Shown here piece after piece: positions 22,101-53,110 of a stretch of 64,000 nucleotides of DNA. The notes below the pieces were generated by a model. It saw nothing but the letters and a program-made list of their open reading frames with translations. It did not search any database and had not been told where the DNA came from. The stretch is taken from the NCBI GenBank assembly GCA_951406725.2, contig OX597817.1:155496001-155560000 (forward strand), written 5' to 3'. The DNA comes from Octopus vulgaris (lineage: Eukaryota). The translations under genes and the position numbers were made by a program. Each line of letters begins with the position of its first letter. Position 1 is the stretch's first letter.

Positions 22101-22368
22101 GAAATAAAAAGAAAGTATTGAAAAGTATGTTAATATCCTAATAAAATACAGAAATTATATGCTTGTTTCTAACTAAATAGTTACTAATATTTTCTTTTAC
22201 TTCCTATTCATTGCAATAATTTTTAGAATGAAAGTGATTCTGTGAAATTTAAAGATGTAATTAAAGTAAACTAAAAAGCAAGCTCAATAGCATTGACAGT
22301 TATGAGTGCAAAATAAGCAGCAATGGCAGCAGGAAAAGTCATAATATAGGAGGCACCATTGAACACAC

Positions 22369-22464
22369 CTTGGCCTGTAACCTGCTAATGCGTGGACTTC
22401 TGTGTGAGTCCGAACGCCTGGCTTCACCGGACCTTTTTACATGTGACCTCCTATGTGCCGAGCT
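22369..22464 (-). CDS. WNK1: Candidate WNK cassette exon: SSAHRRSHVKRSGEARRSDSHRSPRISRLQAK
   Basis: Polypyrimidine tract and ttcag acceptor, AAG|gtgtgt donor, 96 nt, phase 0-0, open frame. A GC-rich island in a very AT-rich intron. Confidence 0.6.
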
Positions 22465-37867: not shown

Positions 37868-40800
37868 CCCTTTCGTTACTATATTTCTGACCAAATTACA
37901 CCCCTTATGTGTTTCAATTAATTTCTAACATAATCATAAATTTAGTCTGATTTCATTAAACAACTATAACTTTTTTATTTATCAATATATTAATGTGATT
38001 TTTGGAAGGACTGGAAGAACGGTGGTAGCAGGGAAATGTATCAGACTGCCAGAAGGGAAGCTAGGAGACAGGTCTATCTAGCCAGAGGGGAAGCAGATAA
38101 GAAAAAATTTGCCAATGTTCTGCGCCGTGAGGATGAAAGACTTGAGGTATTTCGTGTTGCAAGACAGTGTGTGAGAGAGAATCGTGACGTGGTAGGAGAG
38201 AAATGTGTTCGCAAGGATGACGGTTCACTTGCGCTAAATGAGGATGCAAAGAGAGAGGCTTAGAGACGCCACTATGAAAGGTTGCTGAATGAGGAAAATG
38301 AATGGGATAAAGAGAGTCTGCCGAATGTCGACCCAACAGAGGGACCAGCAATCCGAGTTAACAGTTCCTTAGTAGTTAAGGCAATTACAAGCATGAAAAC
38401 AGGGAAAGCCCCAGGCCCATCAGGAATTACTGCAGAGATGCTCAAAATATCTGGTAGTGTCGGCTATAGCCTAGTCACCCGTATAGTTAACCAGGTGATA
38501 CACGAAGGAGTCATACTCAATGACTGGTGTAGCAGCATAATAGTCAACTGCTACAAAGGTAAAGGTGACGCCCTAGATACAAATAACTACAGGGGTATCA
38601 AGCTGCTGGATCAGGTAATGAAGGTTACGGAGAGGGTTATAGCCCAATTAATTAGAGAGAGAGTTAGCTTAGATGAGATGCAGTTTGGGTTCGTGCCAGG
38701 GAAAAGTACTACTGATGCTATATTCCTGGTAAGACAGCTGCAGGAGAAATACCTAGCCAAAGATAAGCCCCTGTACCTGGCTTTTGTTGACATGGAGAAA
38801 GCCTTTGACAGGGTCCCCCGATCCCTTATCTGGTGGTCAATGAGGAAACTAGGGATAGATGAATGGTTAGTGAGAGCTGTGCGAGCTGTACAGAGACGCT
38901 GCTAGTAAGGTGAGGGTTGGCAACGAGTACAGTGAAGAATTCCGGGTAGAGGTTGGGGTCCACCAAGGTTCAGTCCTCAGCCCCCTCCTATTTATCATAG
39001 TCCTCCAGGCAATAACGGAGGAATTCAAGACAGGATGCCCCTGGGAGCTCCTATATGCTGACGACCTTGCTCTAATTGCTGAGTCACTATCAGAACTGGA
39101 GGAGAAGTTCCAGGTGTGGAAGGAGGGTCTAGAATCGAGGGGCCTTAGAGTCAACCTAACTAAAACCAAAGTACTAATAAGTAGGAAGGTAGACAATCCA
39201 CAAATGTCTTCAGGAAGATGGCCCTGCTCGATCTGTAGAAAAGGTGTAGGTAGAAACTCTATAAGATGTACCCAGTGTAAGCTATGGACACATAAGAGGT
39301 GCAGCAATGTCAAAGGAAGGCTAACTGGGAAGATAGTTTTTGTATGTGGCAGATGCTCGGGAGCATTAACCTCTGAAAATCTGCAGAAAACAACTTCCGT
39401 CACTTTCCAGGGGGAAAAACTAGAAGTAGTTGATAGCTTCCGTTATATTGGTGACCATGTCAGTAGTTGGGGTGGGTGTGCTGAAAGTGTAACGGCTAGA
39501 GTAAGAATAGCCTGGGCGAAGTTTAGGGAGCTCTTACCTCTGCTGGTGACTAAAGGCCTCTCGCTCAGAGTAAAAGGCAGACTGTATGATGCATGTGTAC
39601 GAACAGCCATGCTACATGGCAGTGAAACATGGGCCATGACTGCTGAGGACATGCATAAGCTCGCGAGAAATGAAGCCAGTATGCTCCGATGGATGTGTAA
39701 TGTCAGTGTGCATGCTCGACAGAGCGTTAGTACCCTGAGAGAAATGTTGGACTTAAGGAGCATCAGTTGTGGTGCAAGAGAGACGATTGCGCTGGTATGG
39801 TCATGTGGCGAGAATGGATGAAGATAGGTGTGTGAAAAAGTGCCAATCCCTAGCAGTGGAGGGAACCCATGGAAGAGGTAGACCCAGGAAAACTTGGGAT
39901 GAGGTGGTGAAGCACGACCTTCGAACTTTAGGTCTCACTGAGGAAATGACCTGTGACCGAGACCTTTGGAAATATGCAGTGCGTGAAAAGACCAGGCAGG
40001 ACAAGTGAGTCCAGCCCACTTATGCATGCCTTTCTTCCCTTGGACACACAAAGACCTGTTGAGGCAAGCGAAGTCGATATTGAACCTCATCCGACTTCAG
40101 GCACCTATGCCTACCCGCCTTTGCTTGCGAAGACCTGTTGGGGCAAGTGAAGTCGAAATCGAACCAATCCTATGACTGGCACCTGGCAGATGCCAGGACC
40201 CCTGGACTGGAGATACGTAAAAAGCACTATCCAAATCGTGGCCGATGCCAGCGCCGCCTCGACTGGCTTCCGTGTCGGTGGCACGTAAAATGCACCAATC
40301 CGACCGTGGCCGATGCCAGCCTCGCCTGGCTCCAGTGCAGGTGGCACGTAAAAAGCACCCACTACACTCACGGAGTGGTTGGCGTTAGGAAGGGCATCCA
40401 GCTGTAGAAACATTGCCAGATAAGACCAGAGCCTGGGGCAGCCTTCTGGCTTCCCAGATCCCGGTCGAACCTTCCAACCCATGGAGAACGGACGTTAAAC
40501 GACGATGATGATCTCAACCAATTCTATACTATAATTTTTGTCACAAAGTGACTCTAATTGCAGGTAGATACAGGTAAATTCAACAAAATATAAAATTATT
40601 AAAATTTTGTTCAAACATCGCTATAGAAAATGGGTTATTAGCTAATATTCAATTGGGTATACAACAAAATTTTACGATAGAATTTGTTATTCTGGGTAAC
40701 TTTCTGATACCCATAATAATATTTATGGCAAAATAGTCTTAATTTCATTTAAGATTGTGGGAAACCACTAACTATCCTTTCTTTCGCTTTTTTTACATTT

Positions 40801-41876: not shown

Positions 41877-44147
41877 CTATTTAAAAAGAAAATATAAGGT
41901 CAAATTTTATCCAAAACTTTAAATACATTATCACGAAAATGTGTATACAAAGAAATAAACAGCCCAAATAAACATATATACTGATGCCATTTCAAATTAA
42001 TGGCTAGTAACATACAAACCAACTTTTAGCAACTGACAGAATTCTTTAAGCCAAAATCTGAAATATATTCAAAAACATCTAAAATAATTCAACAATATTA
42101 TTTAACAAGAAATTCTCAAAAAAAAAATTATATAATTACCCTTGTTATTTTTTACATAAAATATTTTATTTAATTCGATGGTTTATCAAATCAAATAATA
42201 GCTGCAAAGTGATAATTTCCCTTAATATCAGGACAAGAATATTTAACTGAAATTATTTAAGAAATTTCTTTTAATGCATCTTTTATTAAATGTAAGGAAA
42301 TATTACTTTTTGCATTCAGAATTTTTCAAATGCATATGGAAAATTTTGTTGCTTGTATACAATTGTTTTTCATCAATGTTCATCAAAAAGGATTTGCTTT
42401 ATAAAATAAAGCATTTTTTTTTTTTTTGAGAATAACTATATTTTAATAAGTAAATTCAAATAAGCATTAGGGTTCTTTATCTTGTCAAGAATGTTGAATT
42501 TTATGGCTGACAATGAATAAAAAACAATACAACAAAGACAAACCAGTTGTCTAACAAGGGGGATCGATTATATTTCTCTGAAAGCTGTTTTTTCACTTAT
42601 TCATAAATTATTAATGACTATCTAAGTGTTGAATCTAGAGTAATTTCCACAACATTATTAATCCCAAATGTATTCAATTTACTACTTGTATTCAATACTT
42701 ACTGAGGAACCATTCAGTTATTTTACATATGAAGAAGACAAGAAAGTTTCATTTCTTAAAACATTTTAAAATAATGTTACCTCACACAGAATTTTTTAAA
42801 ATAATGTTACTTGACAGAGAAATTACAAAAATGAAAAAAAAGGAAAGAAAAAAACAGAAAAGAAAACTAAGTAGAATGTTTTTGGTCACCTTGATGAAAT
42901 TATTTCACTTGTATTTGAAAATGAAATGTTTGCAAAAGAAAAATTTGGAATTAAACAAAAGAAAATACAAAAATAGACGGTCTGCCATCAGCAGTTCTGT
43001 GACAAGAGAAAATGAAAATAACTGCAAAATAATTAGTATATGATGTAGTTTAATATGAAAATACAAATCTGAGTACTTCAAAAAAAGTTACATGTCAAAA
43101 CACTAGATAAGGTTTCAAAAACCACTTTTCTTTTCTCATATTTTTAAACTGATTTATCAAAATCAAATAAAAGCTACAAGGTATATTTTCTTTTCAATGC
43201 TAAGACATAAGAATAGCTAACTTAAAACTATTTTTAAAAAAATCATTAAGCTTAAAAAAAAAAGGGAAAGAAAATTTTACTATTGCATTCAGGGCATTTC
43301 AAATTGATATGGAAATTTTAATTACTATATGTAATTGTTTTTCATAAATATTGATCAAAAAACTTTGCTTTAATTATAATAAAGCTTTTTTCTCTTTTTC
43401 TTTTTGAGAATTATCTCAAATGGGATCATGGAATTATCTCCCAATCTTACAATATTTGGTTACCAACTGATACTCGGGAGACACTTGGATGAAGATACCA
43501 ATCATGGAAATTGTATTCAGTTACCTAATCTGCCAAAGAAATAATTCTGAGAATGATTAATGTAATGCAACTCCTTTCTTACAATAAATACAGCAGCAAT
43601 GATGGCCAAATATCAAAAGTAGATAAAGAAATTGGATTACATAAGGTTCAAACTCAAATATTTAGAGGAATTAACAGATTGTAGTAGTTTGTTATTTTTT
43701 TTCATGCATCAATATTTTGATGTAACGACCACAGAAAAAATTCAATCAATAACATTAATATCAGGAATTATTCCATTAGTAATTTAAAGAACTGTATACT
43801 TAACAAGAGCTCGAAATTAAGAGGGCAACATCAAGCATTCCTGATCCCTTCAAATATTCACAATATTGAGGCAATTTCTTAGAAACTTATAAATGGCTTA
43901 AGTAAGAAAACAACACTTTTCTCTTTAAGAATGAAACTACAAAAATGTGTAAGATAAAAGCAAACAGAATTCCTATTTTGTTGATATATTCAACAATTCC
44001 TTAACTATGTTGACAATATGACCCTAAACTACAACAATAAAACTAAAAAAGATAACTGGTGTTCATTAAACAGAAGATACCTTCCCACTGTCTGAAATTC
44101 TCATTTAGGAAATGCTATAAAAAACATACTTAAAATATATAACTCAC

Positions 44148-44305
44148 ACTGGTGACTCTCTTGTAGATCTGCGCAGCATTCGAACATTCTTTGTAAGGGT
44201 ATTCTGACGTGGCCATCTCTAGCATGCACATTCCAAACGCGTACACATCCACGGATTCGTCATAGTGCTCTTCATACATCTCGGGCGCCATGAACTCAGG
44301 TGTAC
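44148..44305 (-). CDS. WNK1: WNK kinase exon 4: [53 protein letters not shown]
   Basis: ttaag acceptor, gtgag donor, 158 nt, phase 1 to 0. Subdomains VIII-X. Confidence 0.97.
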
Positions 44306-45183
44306 CTTAAAAGTATACAAAGATGATGTCTTTGTATGTTGTCTCGGCAGTCTAGAAAGGGAAAGACCGTGAGGGAATACAAGGTCATTAGTACAAGTGC
44401 AATCACCAGGAGTCCAGCGTCCTAGAATAAACTAGCGCAAAATCAAGAGCTAAGAATGACCCCCACGTCTTACCTTCTTGTATCACATACTGTAACAATC
44501 AATTTAACGGGAAAATCTGTTTCAAAACAGAAAGAACTGCATAATTACAGCCACAAAATAATATTAATACAAGTGTATTAATAACTGTAAAAAAAAAAAC
44601 AAAAAAAATTTTTTAAAGTGAAAAAAAAAAAAAAAATCTTGCAAATGTATATATGGGGAAACAATAGGTTTTAACTCACCCTTGTTAACTGCAGGCAGGA
44701 ACCTTTCAACTAAACTAAGCAGCATGACACAGGGCTTGTGATGGCAACATATTCAGTTTGAGAGAATTTGATGTTAAAAAAAAATACAATTCTAGATCCA
44801 ATGTAATACAATGTTAAAAATTGATAGTTATAAATATTGTTTATAATATTCAAAATGAAACCATTAGTCTGAAGCAACCATAACAATTACCATTGAAAAA
44901 AAAAAAAAAAAAGAGGAATTATATATAAAAAAAAACTGAAGATAAAATTTCTGCTGATCACAAGCAATGTGCACACTAAAGTTCTAAAAAAATTGAAATA
45001 GTTTAGCATTTTTCAAATGAAACAAATAATAAAACAATCAAATTGATGGTGAAGGAAATTCTGAAAGGCAAATTATTAAATTCCAAAATGAATACAAAGT
45101 ATATCTTCATATATGTATATATATTGTATATATCTATATATACATATAGATATATAAATATATAATTAGCATAAAATACATAC

Positions 45184-45404
45184 CTATAACACTCTTAGCA
45201 AAGGACTTATTTTTCAATGTGGCTAATCCTAAATCTCCTATTTTCACAGATCCAGTTGTTCCTGTTATGAATATGTTATCACATTTAAGATCACGGTGAA
45301 TCACAGGAGGTGTTCTAGTATGAAGAAACAGAAGTCCTTTAAGAATTTGTCGACACCAGTTCTTTAATACTTTGATGTTTATTTTTTTAAACCTTTTGAT
45401 GTAT
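45184..45404 (-). CDS. WNK1: WNK kinase exon 3: [74 protein letters not shown]
   Basis: ttctag acceptor, gt donor, 221 nt, phase 2 to 1. Catalytic loop, DLG motif and activation-loop serines. Confidence 0.97.
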
Positions 45405-45574
45405 CTAGAAATAGAAAATGAGAAAAATACTCATAGCTGGTATGTGCGTGTGTGTGTGTGTATGCAATTCCAAATTCAGCAGTAATGTCTTAACTTCTAG
45501 GTTTATAGAATTGTAAGTGTTGGTGTAAAAATTTTTTAAGATGCTGTTGTTCTATTATATACAGTTCTATGTCT

Positions 45575-45963
45575 GGAGGCGCAATGGTCCAGTGGTTAGG
45601 GCAGCGGACTTGCGGTCATAGGATCGCGGTTTCGATTCCCAGACCGGGCGTTGTGAGTGTTTATTGGGCGAAAACACCTAAAAGCTCCACGAGGCTCCGG
45701 CAGGGGATGGTGGTGATCCCTGCTGTACTCTTTCACCACAACTTTCTCTCACTCTTACTTCCTGTTTCTGTTGTACCTGTAATTTTTCAAAGGGCCGGCC
45801 TTGTCACTCTCTGTGTCACGCTGAATATCCCCGAGAACTACGTTAAGGGTGCACGTGTCTGTGGAGTGCTCAGCCACTTACACGTTAATTTCACGAGCAG
45901 GTTGTTCCGTTGATCGGATCAACCAGAACCCTCGTCGTTGTAACCGACGGAGTGCTTCCATCC
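45575..45963 (+). mobile_element. Young full-length tRNA-derived SINE with a 12-bp target site duplication
   Basis: A box TGGTCCAGTGG, B box GGTTTCGATTCC. TSD ACAGTTCTATGT at 45561-45572 and 45964-45975. CpGs intact. Confidence 0.9.
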
Positions 45964-46072
45964 ACAGTTCTATGTATGCTATAGGGATTGTTAGTCTTAC
46001 TGGGAGGTACAGATTTTTTAAGTAGTTTTGGAATGTGCAGTTGATTATAAGTTACTATAAAGAAAAACTTAC

Positions 46073-52099: not shown

Positions 52100-53110
52100 T
52101 GCTTCACAGTGTGAGATTTGAAAATTGCAAAGACGAATGTGCGATGTAGTCAAATTCAGGAACTTATGCTTTACAAATTCATGTAAATGTCATGGAAGCA
52201 ACCCAAAACATTGTGTGAAAGGTGAAGGCACAGTTAATCACACTCCAGTAACCAGATGGTTCAAGAAATTTCACCCATTCCAGTTGCAAGAACCTCGATG
52301 AGCAGGCAAGATCAGGTAGGCCTAAAACCATGGATTCCAAGGCTGTACACCAAGCCATAGAGGCAAATCCAGTGGGTAGCACCTGGAGGGTACCAGGTGA
52401 GCTTGGCATCTCACAGTCCAGTGTGGTTCATCATCTCCACAACTTTGACAAAAGCATCCAGAGTGGCCAAATTGTGTCTCATGAATTGACCCCAACAAAG
52501 AGGCAGATGGACTGTAAGGAACTCCTAGAAAACCCATATGATCTGTGTTTCCTCAAGAGGATAATAATGTGCAATGAAAAGTGGATATATTTTCCCACAA
52601 TCCTTACATGCATAAGCAGTGGTTAAGCAAGGGCCAGCTTCTAGAACCTGTTGCCAAGCAATGGGTGTTTCAAACACAAGGTGATGCTCTGCGTCTAGTG
52701 AAGTTGAGGGGATAATGCACTGCAAATTTGTTTTGGACAGTCAAACCAACAATGTCAATCTACATTCTGAACAGCTGTATGCTATTGCACAGCAAAAATA
52801 CCTGGCATTGGTTAACAGAAAGTAAGCTCTTCTGCAGCAAGTCAACACATACAGCTTGAATGATCTGGAATAAACTCCAAAAGCTTGAGGGAATCGCAGT
52901 CCAGACCTAACTCACTTGGATAATAACTTGTTCCAAAACATGACTCACTTCCTGCACTCATGATGCTTCATCAACCAAGAGGGGGTGGAAGCTTCAGTGA
53001 AGGAGTTTTTCATCTTGAAAGACAAGAACTGTTATCAGCATGGGATCAAAGAACTAGCAGAAAGGTGGTTTCAGACAGTAAAACATGATGGCCTCTACTT
53101 TGGATGCTAG
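52100..53110 (+). mobile_element. Degraded mariner transposase
   Basis: RWFKKF, RSGRP, ELGISQSSVVHHL, VSHELT (from WVPHEL) and RIIMCNEKWIYF, with multiple stops. Confidence 0.85.

What the first reader, a model, noticed from the sequence alone, without database searches (positions are those of the whole stretch)
44148..44516. Constrained-looking regulatory block at the WNK activation-loop intron/exon 4 junction
Seen: by hand count, exon 4 has G/C at 32 of 53 third codon positions and 9 CpGs, none from Arg CGN codons. Adjacent exon 3 has about 19 of 74 and 2 CpGs. The elevated-GC, non-repeat sequence continues about 200 nt into the upstream intron, which is crowded with splice-like signals (see the next findings). 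The intron segment GACGTGG-GGG-TCATTCTTAGC can form a bulged duplex with exonic GCTAGAGATGGCCACGTC. Known: this intron interrupts the activation loop ([12 protein letters not shown]), and coleoid editing sites and regulated exons often have conserved flanks. Inference: nucleotide-level selection for a splicing, editing or RNA-structure switch controlling kinase activity.
Basis: partly seen in the sequence, partly recalled or inferred. Interest (0 to 1): 0.75.

Follow-up and report, generated by a model that had tools for sequence, protein, structure and literature searches.

The report
Ancient poison splice acceptor in WNK
The intron that splits the activation loop of the octopus salt-sensing kinase WNK carries a second, stronger-looking splice acceptor 46 bases before the normal one, and a limpet and a brachiopod are annotated with the cut-off kinase that such an acceptor gives, so it is likely an ancient splicing off-switch that would set kinase levels.

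Summary
The composition claims hold: exon 4 has G/C at 32 of 52 third positions against 14.5 expected, and 9 CpGs, none from Arg codons. The proposed intron-exon duplex is no better than chance, and no editing was seen. The real feature is a pair of competing acceptors. A consensus branch point, pyrimidine tract and TAG lie 46 nt upstream of a weak TTTAAG productive acceptor; use of the TAG would shift the frame and stop the kinase mid activation loop. The same layout (46, 52, 54, 46 nt) occurs in 4 of 17 other animal WNK loci although the introns do not align. RefSeq proteins of Lingula (46-nt extension) and Patella (37-nt) carry the frameshifted product, and 8 of 20 lophotrochozoan species have isoforms that begin at the exon-4 Met. 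In octopus RNA only the normal junction was seen, in 10 reads and one contig. Verdict: likely a conserved unproductive-splicing (NMD) switch in a kinase gene, a known mechanism at a site not found in ten literature searches. Trigger and decay are untested.

The parts
45184..45404 (-). WNK exon 3 (kinase subdomains up to SFAKSVI), donor G|GTATGT
   Evidence: spliced to exon 4 in RNA reads
44387..44393 (-). Consensus branch point TACTAAT (predicted branch A at 44388)
   Evidence: the only TACTAAY + 17/20 pyrimidine + YAG site on the minus strand of the 64 kb window
44354..44386 (-). Pyrimidine tract of the upstream acceptor (17 of the last 20 bases are pyrimidines)
44352..44354 (-). Upstream (poison) acceptor TAG; exon would start at 44351
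   Evidence: same position in L003 and L010 (-46), L007 (-52), L004 (-54); Lingula product implies -46. Use in octopus not seen
44306..44351 (-). 46-nt extension (3n+1): purine-rich 5' half, pyrimidine-rich 3' half
44315..44337 (-). Predicted 9-bp hairpin that buries the pyrimidine tract of the productive acceptor
   Evidence: pair probabilities 0.83-0.99; z -2.65; perfect inverted repeat; covariation across loci not shown
44306..44311 (-). Productive acceptor TTTAAG; its TAA is an in-frame stop for any 3n extension
   Evidence: invariant with the next four bases in 5 of 5 loci with the layout; used in RNA
44148..44305 (-). WNK exon 4, GC3- and CpG-rich against the rest of the gene
   Evidence: 0 differences in 158 nt in organisms D and E
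44296..44298 (-). Stop codon of the shifted frame, 148 nt before the next junction
44289..44291 (-). Exon-4 Met (residue 468), start of the downstream ORF annotated in relatives
44474..44516 (-). Candidate second decoy: acceptors at 44516 and 44489, donor AAG|GTAAGA at 44473 (43 or 16 nt, frameshifting); unverified
   Evidence: sequence, donor 8/9; acceptors at -205 and -195 in L004 and L010; no joint in reads

Best explanation
The block holds two competing 3' splice sites in the activation-loop intron of WNK, and the upstream one likely diverts transcripts to a frameshifted, kinase-dead message that nonsense-mediated decay would destroy. Shown: a strong acceptor 46 nt upstream of a weak productive acceptor; a stop 148 nt before the next junction; the same layout in four other animal loci; annotated products of such an acceptor in Lingula and Patella. 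Inferred: that octopus uses the upstream site, that the product decays, that the ratio is regulated, and that exon 4 kept its G/C third positions while the rest of the gene drifted to A/T because it carries splicing signals needed by the weak acceptor. A purine-rich arm between the two pyrimidine tracts is predicted to pair with either tract and may bias the choice.
For: Layout: (1 of 15 acceptors of this gene has such an upstream site; 0 of the 13 loci without TTTAAG have one 30-60 nt upstream). L003 -46, L007 -52, L010 -46 pass the strict filter, L004 -54 passes on tract but has a variant branch point. All five give a stop 112-159 nt before the next junction. XP_013401498.1 (Lingula) and XP_050413125.2 (Patella) run SFAKSVI, 16 or 13 new codons, then exon 4 in the shifted frame: 46 and 37 nt, both 3n+1. 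Isoforms starting at the exon-4 Met in 8 of 20 lophotrochozoan species listed and in Glandiceps; in Ruditapes and Mizuhopecten exon 3 has its own Met, which places the break in this intron. Organisms D and E differ at 1 of 398 nt in exon 4 plus block, 2 of 23 nt in the intron-4 flank. Unspliced reads are commoner at this junction than at the next in two raw runs (about 23:10 against 19:50).
Against: No read or contig showed the upstream acceptor in octopus RNA: 6 and 4 junction reads and one contig all use the normal site (about 6 in 100 of each raw run read, one loose end not shown). Contig run X6 shows no excess of unspliced intron 3 (22.7:93.5 against 19.2:97.8). None of the 5 proteins in the octopus cluster is such an isoform. 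12 of 20 lophotrochozoan species list none. Transcripts behind the Met-start isoforms could not be seen; in 6 of the 8 species the break could lie further upstream. Synonymous identity with distant loci is near saturation in both exons (70/178 against 81/260, p 0.08). Hairpin covariation not supported.
Confidence: 0.68

Rival explanations
1. The upstream site is a decoy that is engaged but rarely spliced; it slows removal of intron 3 and holds WNK transcripts in the nucleus until a signal releases them (detained intron).
For: Unspliced reads at this junction match or outnumber spliced ones in X21 and X22; 14 RNA-like contig runs hold 0.73-0.95 of the words of 44140-44780, most of it intron (kind guessed, only X6 laid); two strong unused donors lie at -168 and -374.
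Against: X6 shows the same unspliced share at both ends of exon 4; a filter may drop conserved junction reads; Lingula and Patella products show real splicing to the upstream site. Not exclusive of the best explanation.
Confidence: 0.15
2. The block is an internal start (promoter or alternative first exon) for a kinase-dead short WNK that begins at the exon-4 Met, working like kidney KS-WNK1.
For: Met-start isoforms in nine species; CpG o/e 0.98 in exon 4; depth in X21 falls from 19 to 6 upstream through the block, and exon 4-5 junction reads (27, 23) exceed exon 3-4 reads (6, 4).
Against: No place where many molecules begin (table 6); X6 depths balance on both sides of exon 4; the conserved elements are acceptor signals; the position of the shifted-frame stop against the Met varies (-1 to +46), which argues against coupled reinitiation.
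Confidence: 0.09
3. The upstream AG is a cryptic site used only as splicing noise; the branch point and tract serve the productive acceptor from a distance and no regulation is involved.
For: The spacer has no consensus branch point of its own in octopus (sequence); the poison junction is not seen in octopus reads; annotation pipelines model rare junctions.
Against: A frameshifting YAG directly behind the tract is kept at 37-54 nt in cephalopod, bivalve-like, limpet and brachiopod genes; a harmful cryptic site would be lost by one substitution.
Confidence: 0.06
4. Exon 4 and the intron are constrained as double-stranded RNA for A-to-I editing.
For: Coleoid editing sites have conserved flanks (recalled); exon 4 is invariant in organisms D and E.
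Against: No sense-strand A-to-G difference listed in X21 or X22; duplex at chance level; block z 0.23.
Confidence: 0.02

Closest known systems
C. elegans sams-3/4 intron 2 (PMC8208822, passages read; PMC10018337, listing only)
   Same: An enzyme gene in which a productive 3' splice site competes with an upstream non-coding acceptor and with intron retention, with a stem-loop at the acceptor and conservation among invertebrates.
   Different: The METT-10 motif UACAGAAAC is absent at both acceptors in all five loci; the hairpin here covers the tract, not the AG; no trigger is known.
Unproductive splicing of splicing-factor genes, poison exons (PMC4379411, PMC11357089; listings only)
   Same: A conserved splice choice that puts in a premature stop, with constrained flanking sequence.
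   Different: An alternative acceptor, not a cassette exon; a signalling kinase, not an RNA-binding protein; layout conserved without alignable sequence.
Distant alternative acceptor pairs (PMC2018619, abstract and section 19 read)
   Same: Raised intronic conservation upstream and a branch point far from the distal site.
   Different: That study is of human-mouse pairs and reports weaker tracts; here the upstream tract is strong and the event is shared across phyla.
KS-WNK1 (PMC3365125, passages read)
   Same: A WNK form lacking most of the kinase domain.
   Different: KS-WNK1 starts at its own promoter and exon 4a, which replaces exons 1-4; the paper states that the WNK1 alternative exons give no frameshift or stop. 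Here the break lies before exon 4 and shifts the frame.
Decoy-exon intron retention, SF3B1 and OGT (PMC6097662, PMC12017769; listings only)
   Same: Strong but rarely used splice sites inside an intron.
   Different: Detention is not shown here; one of three RNA runs laid shows no excess retention.

Membership tests
Unproductive splicing (AS-NMD) by alternative 3' splice site | Competing acceptor with branch point, tract and AG | tested here: met
Unproductive splicing (AS-NMD) by alternative 3' splice site | Premature stop more than 50 nt before a downstream junction | tested here: met
   148 nt in octopus, 112-159 nt in four other loci
Unproductive splicing (AS-NMD) by alternative 3' splice site | The alternative junction is used in RNA | tested here: inconclusive
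   0 of 10 listed octopus junction reads; annotated products in Lingula and Patella
Unproductive splicing (AS-NMD) by alternative 3' splice site | The isoform rises when decay is blocked | not testable with these tools
   no such data reached
Unproductive splicing (AS-NMD) by alternative 3' splice site | The ratio responds to a signal or feedback | not testable with these tools
   run conditions are not given
METT-10/METTL16 m6A-controlled acceptor (sams type) | UACAGAAAC-type motif over the AG in a stem-loop | tested here: not met
   motif; acceptor sequences
Ultraconserved poison exon | Long near-identical sequence across distant taxa | tested here: not met
   blastn of intron 3 against 80 loci gave only four short chance matches; codon identity 0.31-0.45
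Ultraconserved poison exon | Cassette exon included between two donors and acceptors | tested here: inconclusive
   candidate 16/43-nt exon has no joint in reads
Coleoid A-to-I editing site with complementary sequence | A-to-G differences between RNA and DNA | tested here: inconclusive
   none listed at depth about 10-50, tissue unknown
Coleoid A-to-I editing site with complementary sequence | Stable intron-exon duplex | tested here: not met
KS-WNK1-like internal-promoter isoform | Transcription start or first exon inside the gene | tested here: inconclusive
   no clustered starts in reads; coverage slope ambiguous
RNA-thermometer acceptor (yeast APE2 type, recalled) | Acceptor accessibility switches with temperature | tested here: not met
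   predicted accessibility shows no sharp or consistent change from 10 to 32 C in five loci; model only

The most novel reading that the evidence does not exclude
An RNA toggle older than the mollusc-brachiopod split: the purine-rich arm between the two tracts flips between two equally stable folds, opening one acceptor and closing the other, so that ionic or osmotic state, or WNK activity itself, sets how much chloride-sensing kinase is made. Opening either site costs the same in octopus (11.0 and 11.0 kcal/mol) and within 2 kcal/mol in four other loci; burial of the productive tract exceeds spacer shuffles weakly (combined p 0.01 for five non-independent loci, 0.015-0.07 for three, 0.29 for 12 controls; post hoc).
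Probability: 0.2. Interest if true: 0.86.

Novelty: new member of a known kind. Interest (0 to 1): 0.66.

Why it matters
WNK kinases sense chloride and osmotic stress and are activated on this loop (PMC13686953, passages read); the known controls described there act on the protein. A splice choice that cuts the loop, kept across cephalopods, bivalves, gastropods and brachiopods, would be a transcript-level control of the single WNK gene in marine invertebrates. Such deep conservation is mostly described for splicing-factor genes. It is testable at once: the junction is one defined sequence, and public salinity and temperature RNA-seq for oysters, mussels and clams can be recounted for it.

Tried and rejected
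Rfam: nothing in the block. Repeat or second copy: one match each for the DNA block and for exon 3 in the own genome (lower bounds). Whole-block folding: z 0.23. Long duplex scan without shuffles was uninformative (one search timed out). In-frame microexon in the activation loop: 0 credible inserts among 308 proteins with both sides, of 439 held; the four odd joins are three fish models lacking the Gly and one intron read-through. Hairpin covariation: 48% of cells paired, no better than shuffles, on a poor five-row alignment with a structure I drew; spacer folding is significant only in octopus among the five, and 2 of 16 controls score alike. Temperature switch: not predicted. Deep synonymous conservation: not shown; exon 4 is not richer in GC3 than exon 3 in the four other loci with the layout, so the contrast is particular to octopus. 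Search with the Lingula tail found 9 weak hits and no further poison product (P0359 from Timema has an unexplained tail). Acceptor pattern in prokaryote and viral contigs: 0 matches; no RNA holder listed on record (kinds guessed). Vertebrate WNK2/WNK3 and amphioxus clusters: 0 Met-start or poison forms among 52 listed of 62 members; human WNK1 not examined. Earlier scan findings: none.

Full report
Gene and observation. The window holds most of a WNK kinase gene on the minus strand; its protein P0012 is 98% identical to an Octopus bimaculoides entry, and exon 3 has one match in the own genome. Exon 3 is 45404-45184, exon 4 is 44305-44148, and the 878-nt intron between them splits the Gly codon between SFAKSVI and TPEF. 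Given its amino acids exon 4 should have 14.5 (z 6.5); the other 14 coding blocks lie between z -2.0 and +1.4. The block is single-copy and matches no RNA family. The proposed duplex does not hold: pair probability about 0.01, and 40 of 150 shuffles reach the best real pairing, which is itself stronger than the proposed one.

Anatomy. Read on the sense strand, the intron ends with TACTAAT (44393-44387), a pyrimidine tract, TAG (44354-44352), a 46-nt spacer, and then TTTAAG at the annotated acceptor. The upstream site is the only TACTAAY-plus-17/20-pyrimidine acceptor on the minus strand of the window, and exon 4 is the only one of 15 acceptors of the gene with a strong site 10-100 nt upstream. 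Use of the TAG adds 46 nt, shifts the frame and stops at 44298-44296, 148 nt before the next junction. The spacer holds a perfect 9-bp hairpin (44337-44315) that covers most of the productive tract.

Other animals, DNA. A metagenome scan kept the best 80 of 439 WNK-like stretches. For 17 of these both ends of the intron could be placed. Four end in TTTAAG|GTAC like the window, and all four have a branch-point motif, a long tract and a CAG at -46, -52, -54 and -46 (L004 has a variant branch point and fails the strict filter). None of the other 13 has such a site 30-60 nt upstream. All four give a stop 112-159 nt before the next junction; in L004 the 3n extension ends on the TAA of the acceptor itself. 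L003 and L007 resemble heteroconch bivalves; L004 and L010 match no named mollusc well and their group is open. They pair up by similarity, so these are about three lineages with the window, not five. The introns do not align by blastn.

Other animals, annotated proteins. Cluster listings (lists capped at 15 per cluster, so four lophotrochozoan clusters are incomplete) cover RefSeq isoforms of 20 lophotrochozoan species. Lingula XP_013401498.1 ends in SFAKSVI, 16 new codons and exon 4 read in the shifted frame, which is a 46-nt extension; Patella XP_050413125.2 does the same with 37 nt. Eight of the 20 species (Mytilus galloprovincialis, Crassostrea virginica, Pomacea, Haliotis rufescens, Ruditapes, Mizuhopecten, Patella, Lingula) and the hemichordate Glandiceps have an isoform that starts at the exon-4 Met, which is what an annotation gives when the frame breaks just upstream (my inference; transcripts not seen). 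In Ruditapes and Mizuhopecten exon 3 has a Met of its own, so the break lies in this intron. Twelve species list none, nor do 52 listed frog, rodent and amphioxus members, nor the five octopus proteins.

RNA and close relatives. Four runs were laid on 44125-44545. In two raw RNA runs of organism E (86 and 45 reads, about 6 in 100 of each run) the 6 and 4 listed junction reads all join exon 3 to 44305; no joint and no sense-strand A-to-G site is listed; one loose end is not shown. Contigs of run X6 show the same junction and an unbroken intron piece; contigs drop rare forms. A decaying isoform could be missed at this depth, but the result is against, not for. Unspliced depth is high at this junction in the raw runs (about 19:6 and 4:4, against 12:27 and 7:23 at the next donor; rough Fisher p 8e-5, reads not independent) but not in X6. 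Organisms D and E differ from the window at 0 of 158 exon bases, 1 of 240 block bases and 2 of 23 intron-4 bases (p 0.008, very small numbers).

Exon 4 composition. In the four other loci with the layout exon 4 has GC3s 0.43-0.45, no higher than their exon 3. Octopus exon 4 (0.57) is therefore close to the level seen in other animals, and the rest of the octopus gene (0.24) is what moved. Slower synonymous change in exon 4 explains this; local lack of methylation would also raise CpG and was not tested. Codon identity to distant loci is near saturation.

Mechanism. Most likely: one strong branch point and tract recruit the spliceosome; the first AG gives a dead message, and the weak second AG gives kinase; the ratio sets WNK dose through decay. 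Shown: the sites, the frame, the conservation of layout, the products in two species. Inferred: use in octopus, decay, regulation. A structural part is suggested but weak. Opening either acceptor costs nearly the same in all five loci, and in octopus the purine-rich arm swaps from the productive tract to the tract beside the branch point. Against spacer shuffles the burial of the productive tract gives p 0.04-0.38 per locus, 0.01 combined, 0.015-0.07 for three lineages, 0.29 for 12 controls (post hoc). Covariation was not shown and no temperature switch is predicted.

Known systems. It works like the C. elegans sams intron, where an upstream non-coding acceptor and retention compete with the productive site (PMC8208822, passages), but lacks the METT-10 motif. 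It differs from KS-WNK1, which starts at its own promoter; the WNK1 isoform survey reports no frameshifting exons (PMC3365125, passages). A 2026 WNK review has no mention of introns or nonsense decay in its main text (PMC13686953, term search and passages). Distant acceptor pairs with conserved flanks are a known class (PMC2018619, abstract and section 19). Ten full-text searches (listings only) showed no report of this event. No supplements were read; genome-wide tables of unproductive splicing may list WNK, and subscription journals are not covered.

Verdict. A real constrained element, best read as a new and deeply conserved case of unproductive splicing in a kinase gene (0.68). Interest 0.66; the missing octopus junction reads and unknown trigger hold it down.

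Noticed in passing
window 44680-44709 (-): GC-richer patch with a strong donor (AGG|GTGAGT at 44679) and two acceptors that would give in-frame 9- or 30-nt microexons inside the activation loop. No protein among 308 shows such an insert and the junction reads at exon 4 all come from exon 3.
   Followed up: partly
window 44487: Organisms D and E carry a change that makes a tandem CAG TAG acceptor at the candidate 16-nt exon.
   Followed up: no
L004 (-205) and L010 (-195) from the productive acceptor; window 44516 (-211): A second acceptor-like site about 200 nt upstream in three of the five loci.
   Followed up: partly
window 44188-44195 and 44316-44323: Exon 4 repeats 8 bases of the hairpin's 5' arm and could compete for the productive tract; may be chance.
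   Followed up: no
window about 22340-22450 (-): A 32-residue cassette exon is present in P0121 and absent from P0012 and P0122; the C-terminus also differs between isoforms.
   Followed up: no
window about 37990-40010 (+): Broken LINE-like reverse-transcriptase reading frames inside a WNK intron (name recalled from the translation).
   Followed up: no
window about 45570-45970: GC-rich interspersed repeat, SINE-like by eye, in intron 2.
   Followed up: no
window about 52250-52620 (+): Mariner-like transposase fragment (name recalled from the translation).
   Followed up: no
proteins P0103, P0105, P0118: Three fish WNK models lack the Gly at this same junction; tandem acceptor or annotation error.
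   Followed up: no
proteins P0152/P0199 and P0173/P0187: Babylonia and Nucella each have two WNK genes; one Nucella copy has a changed activation loop.
   Followed up: no
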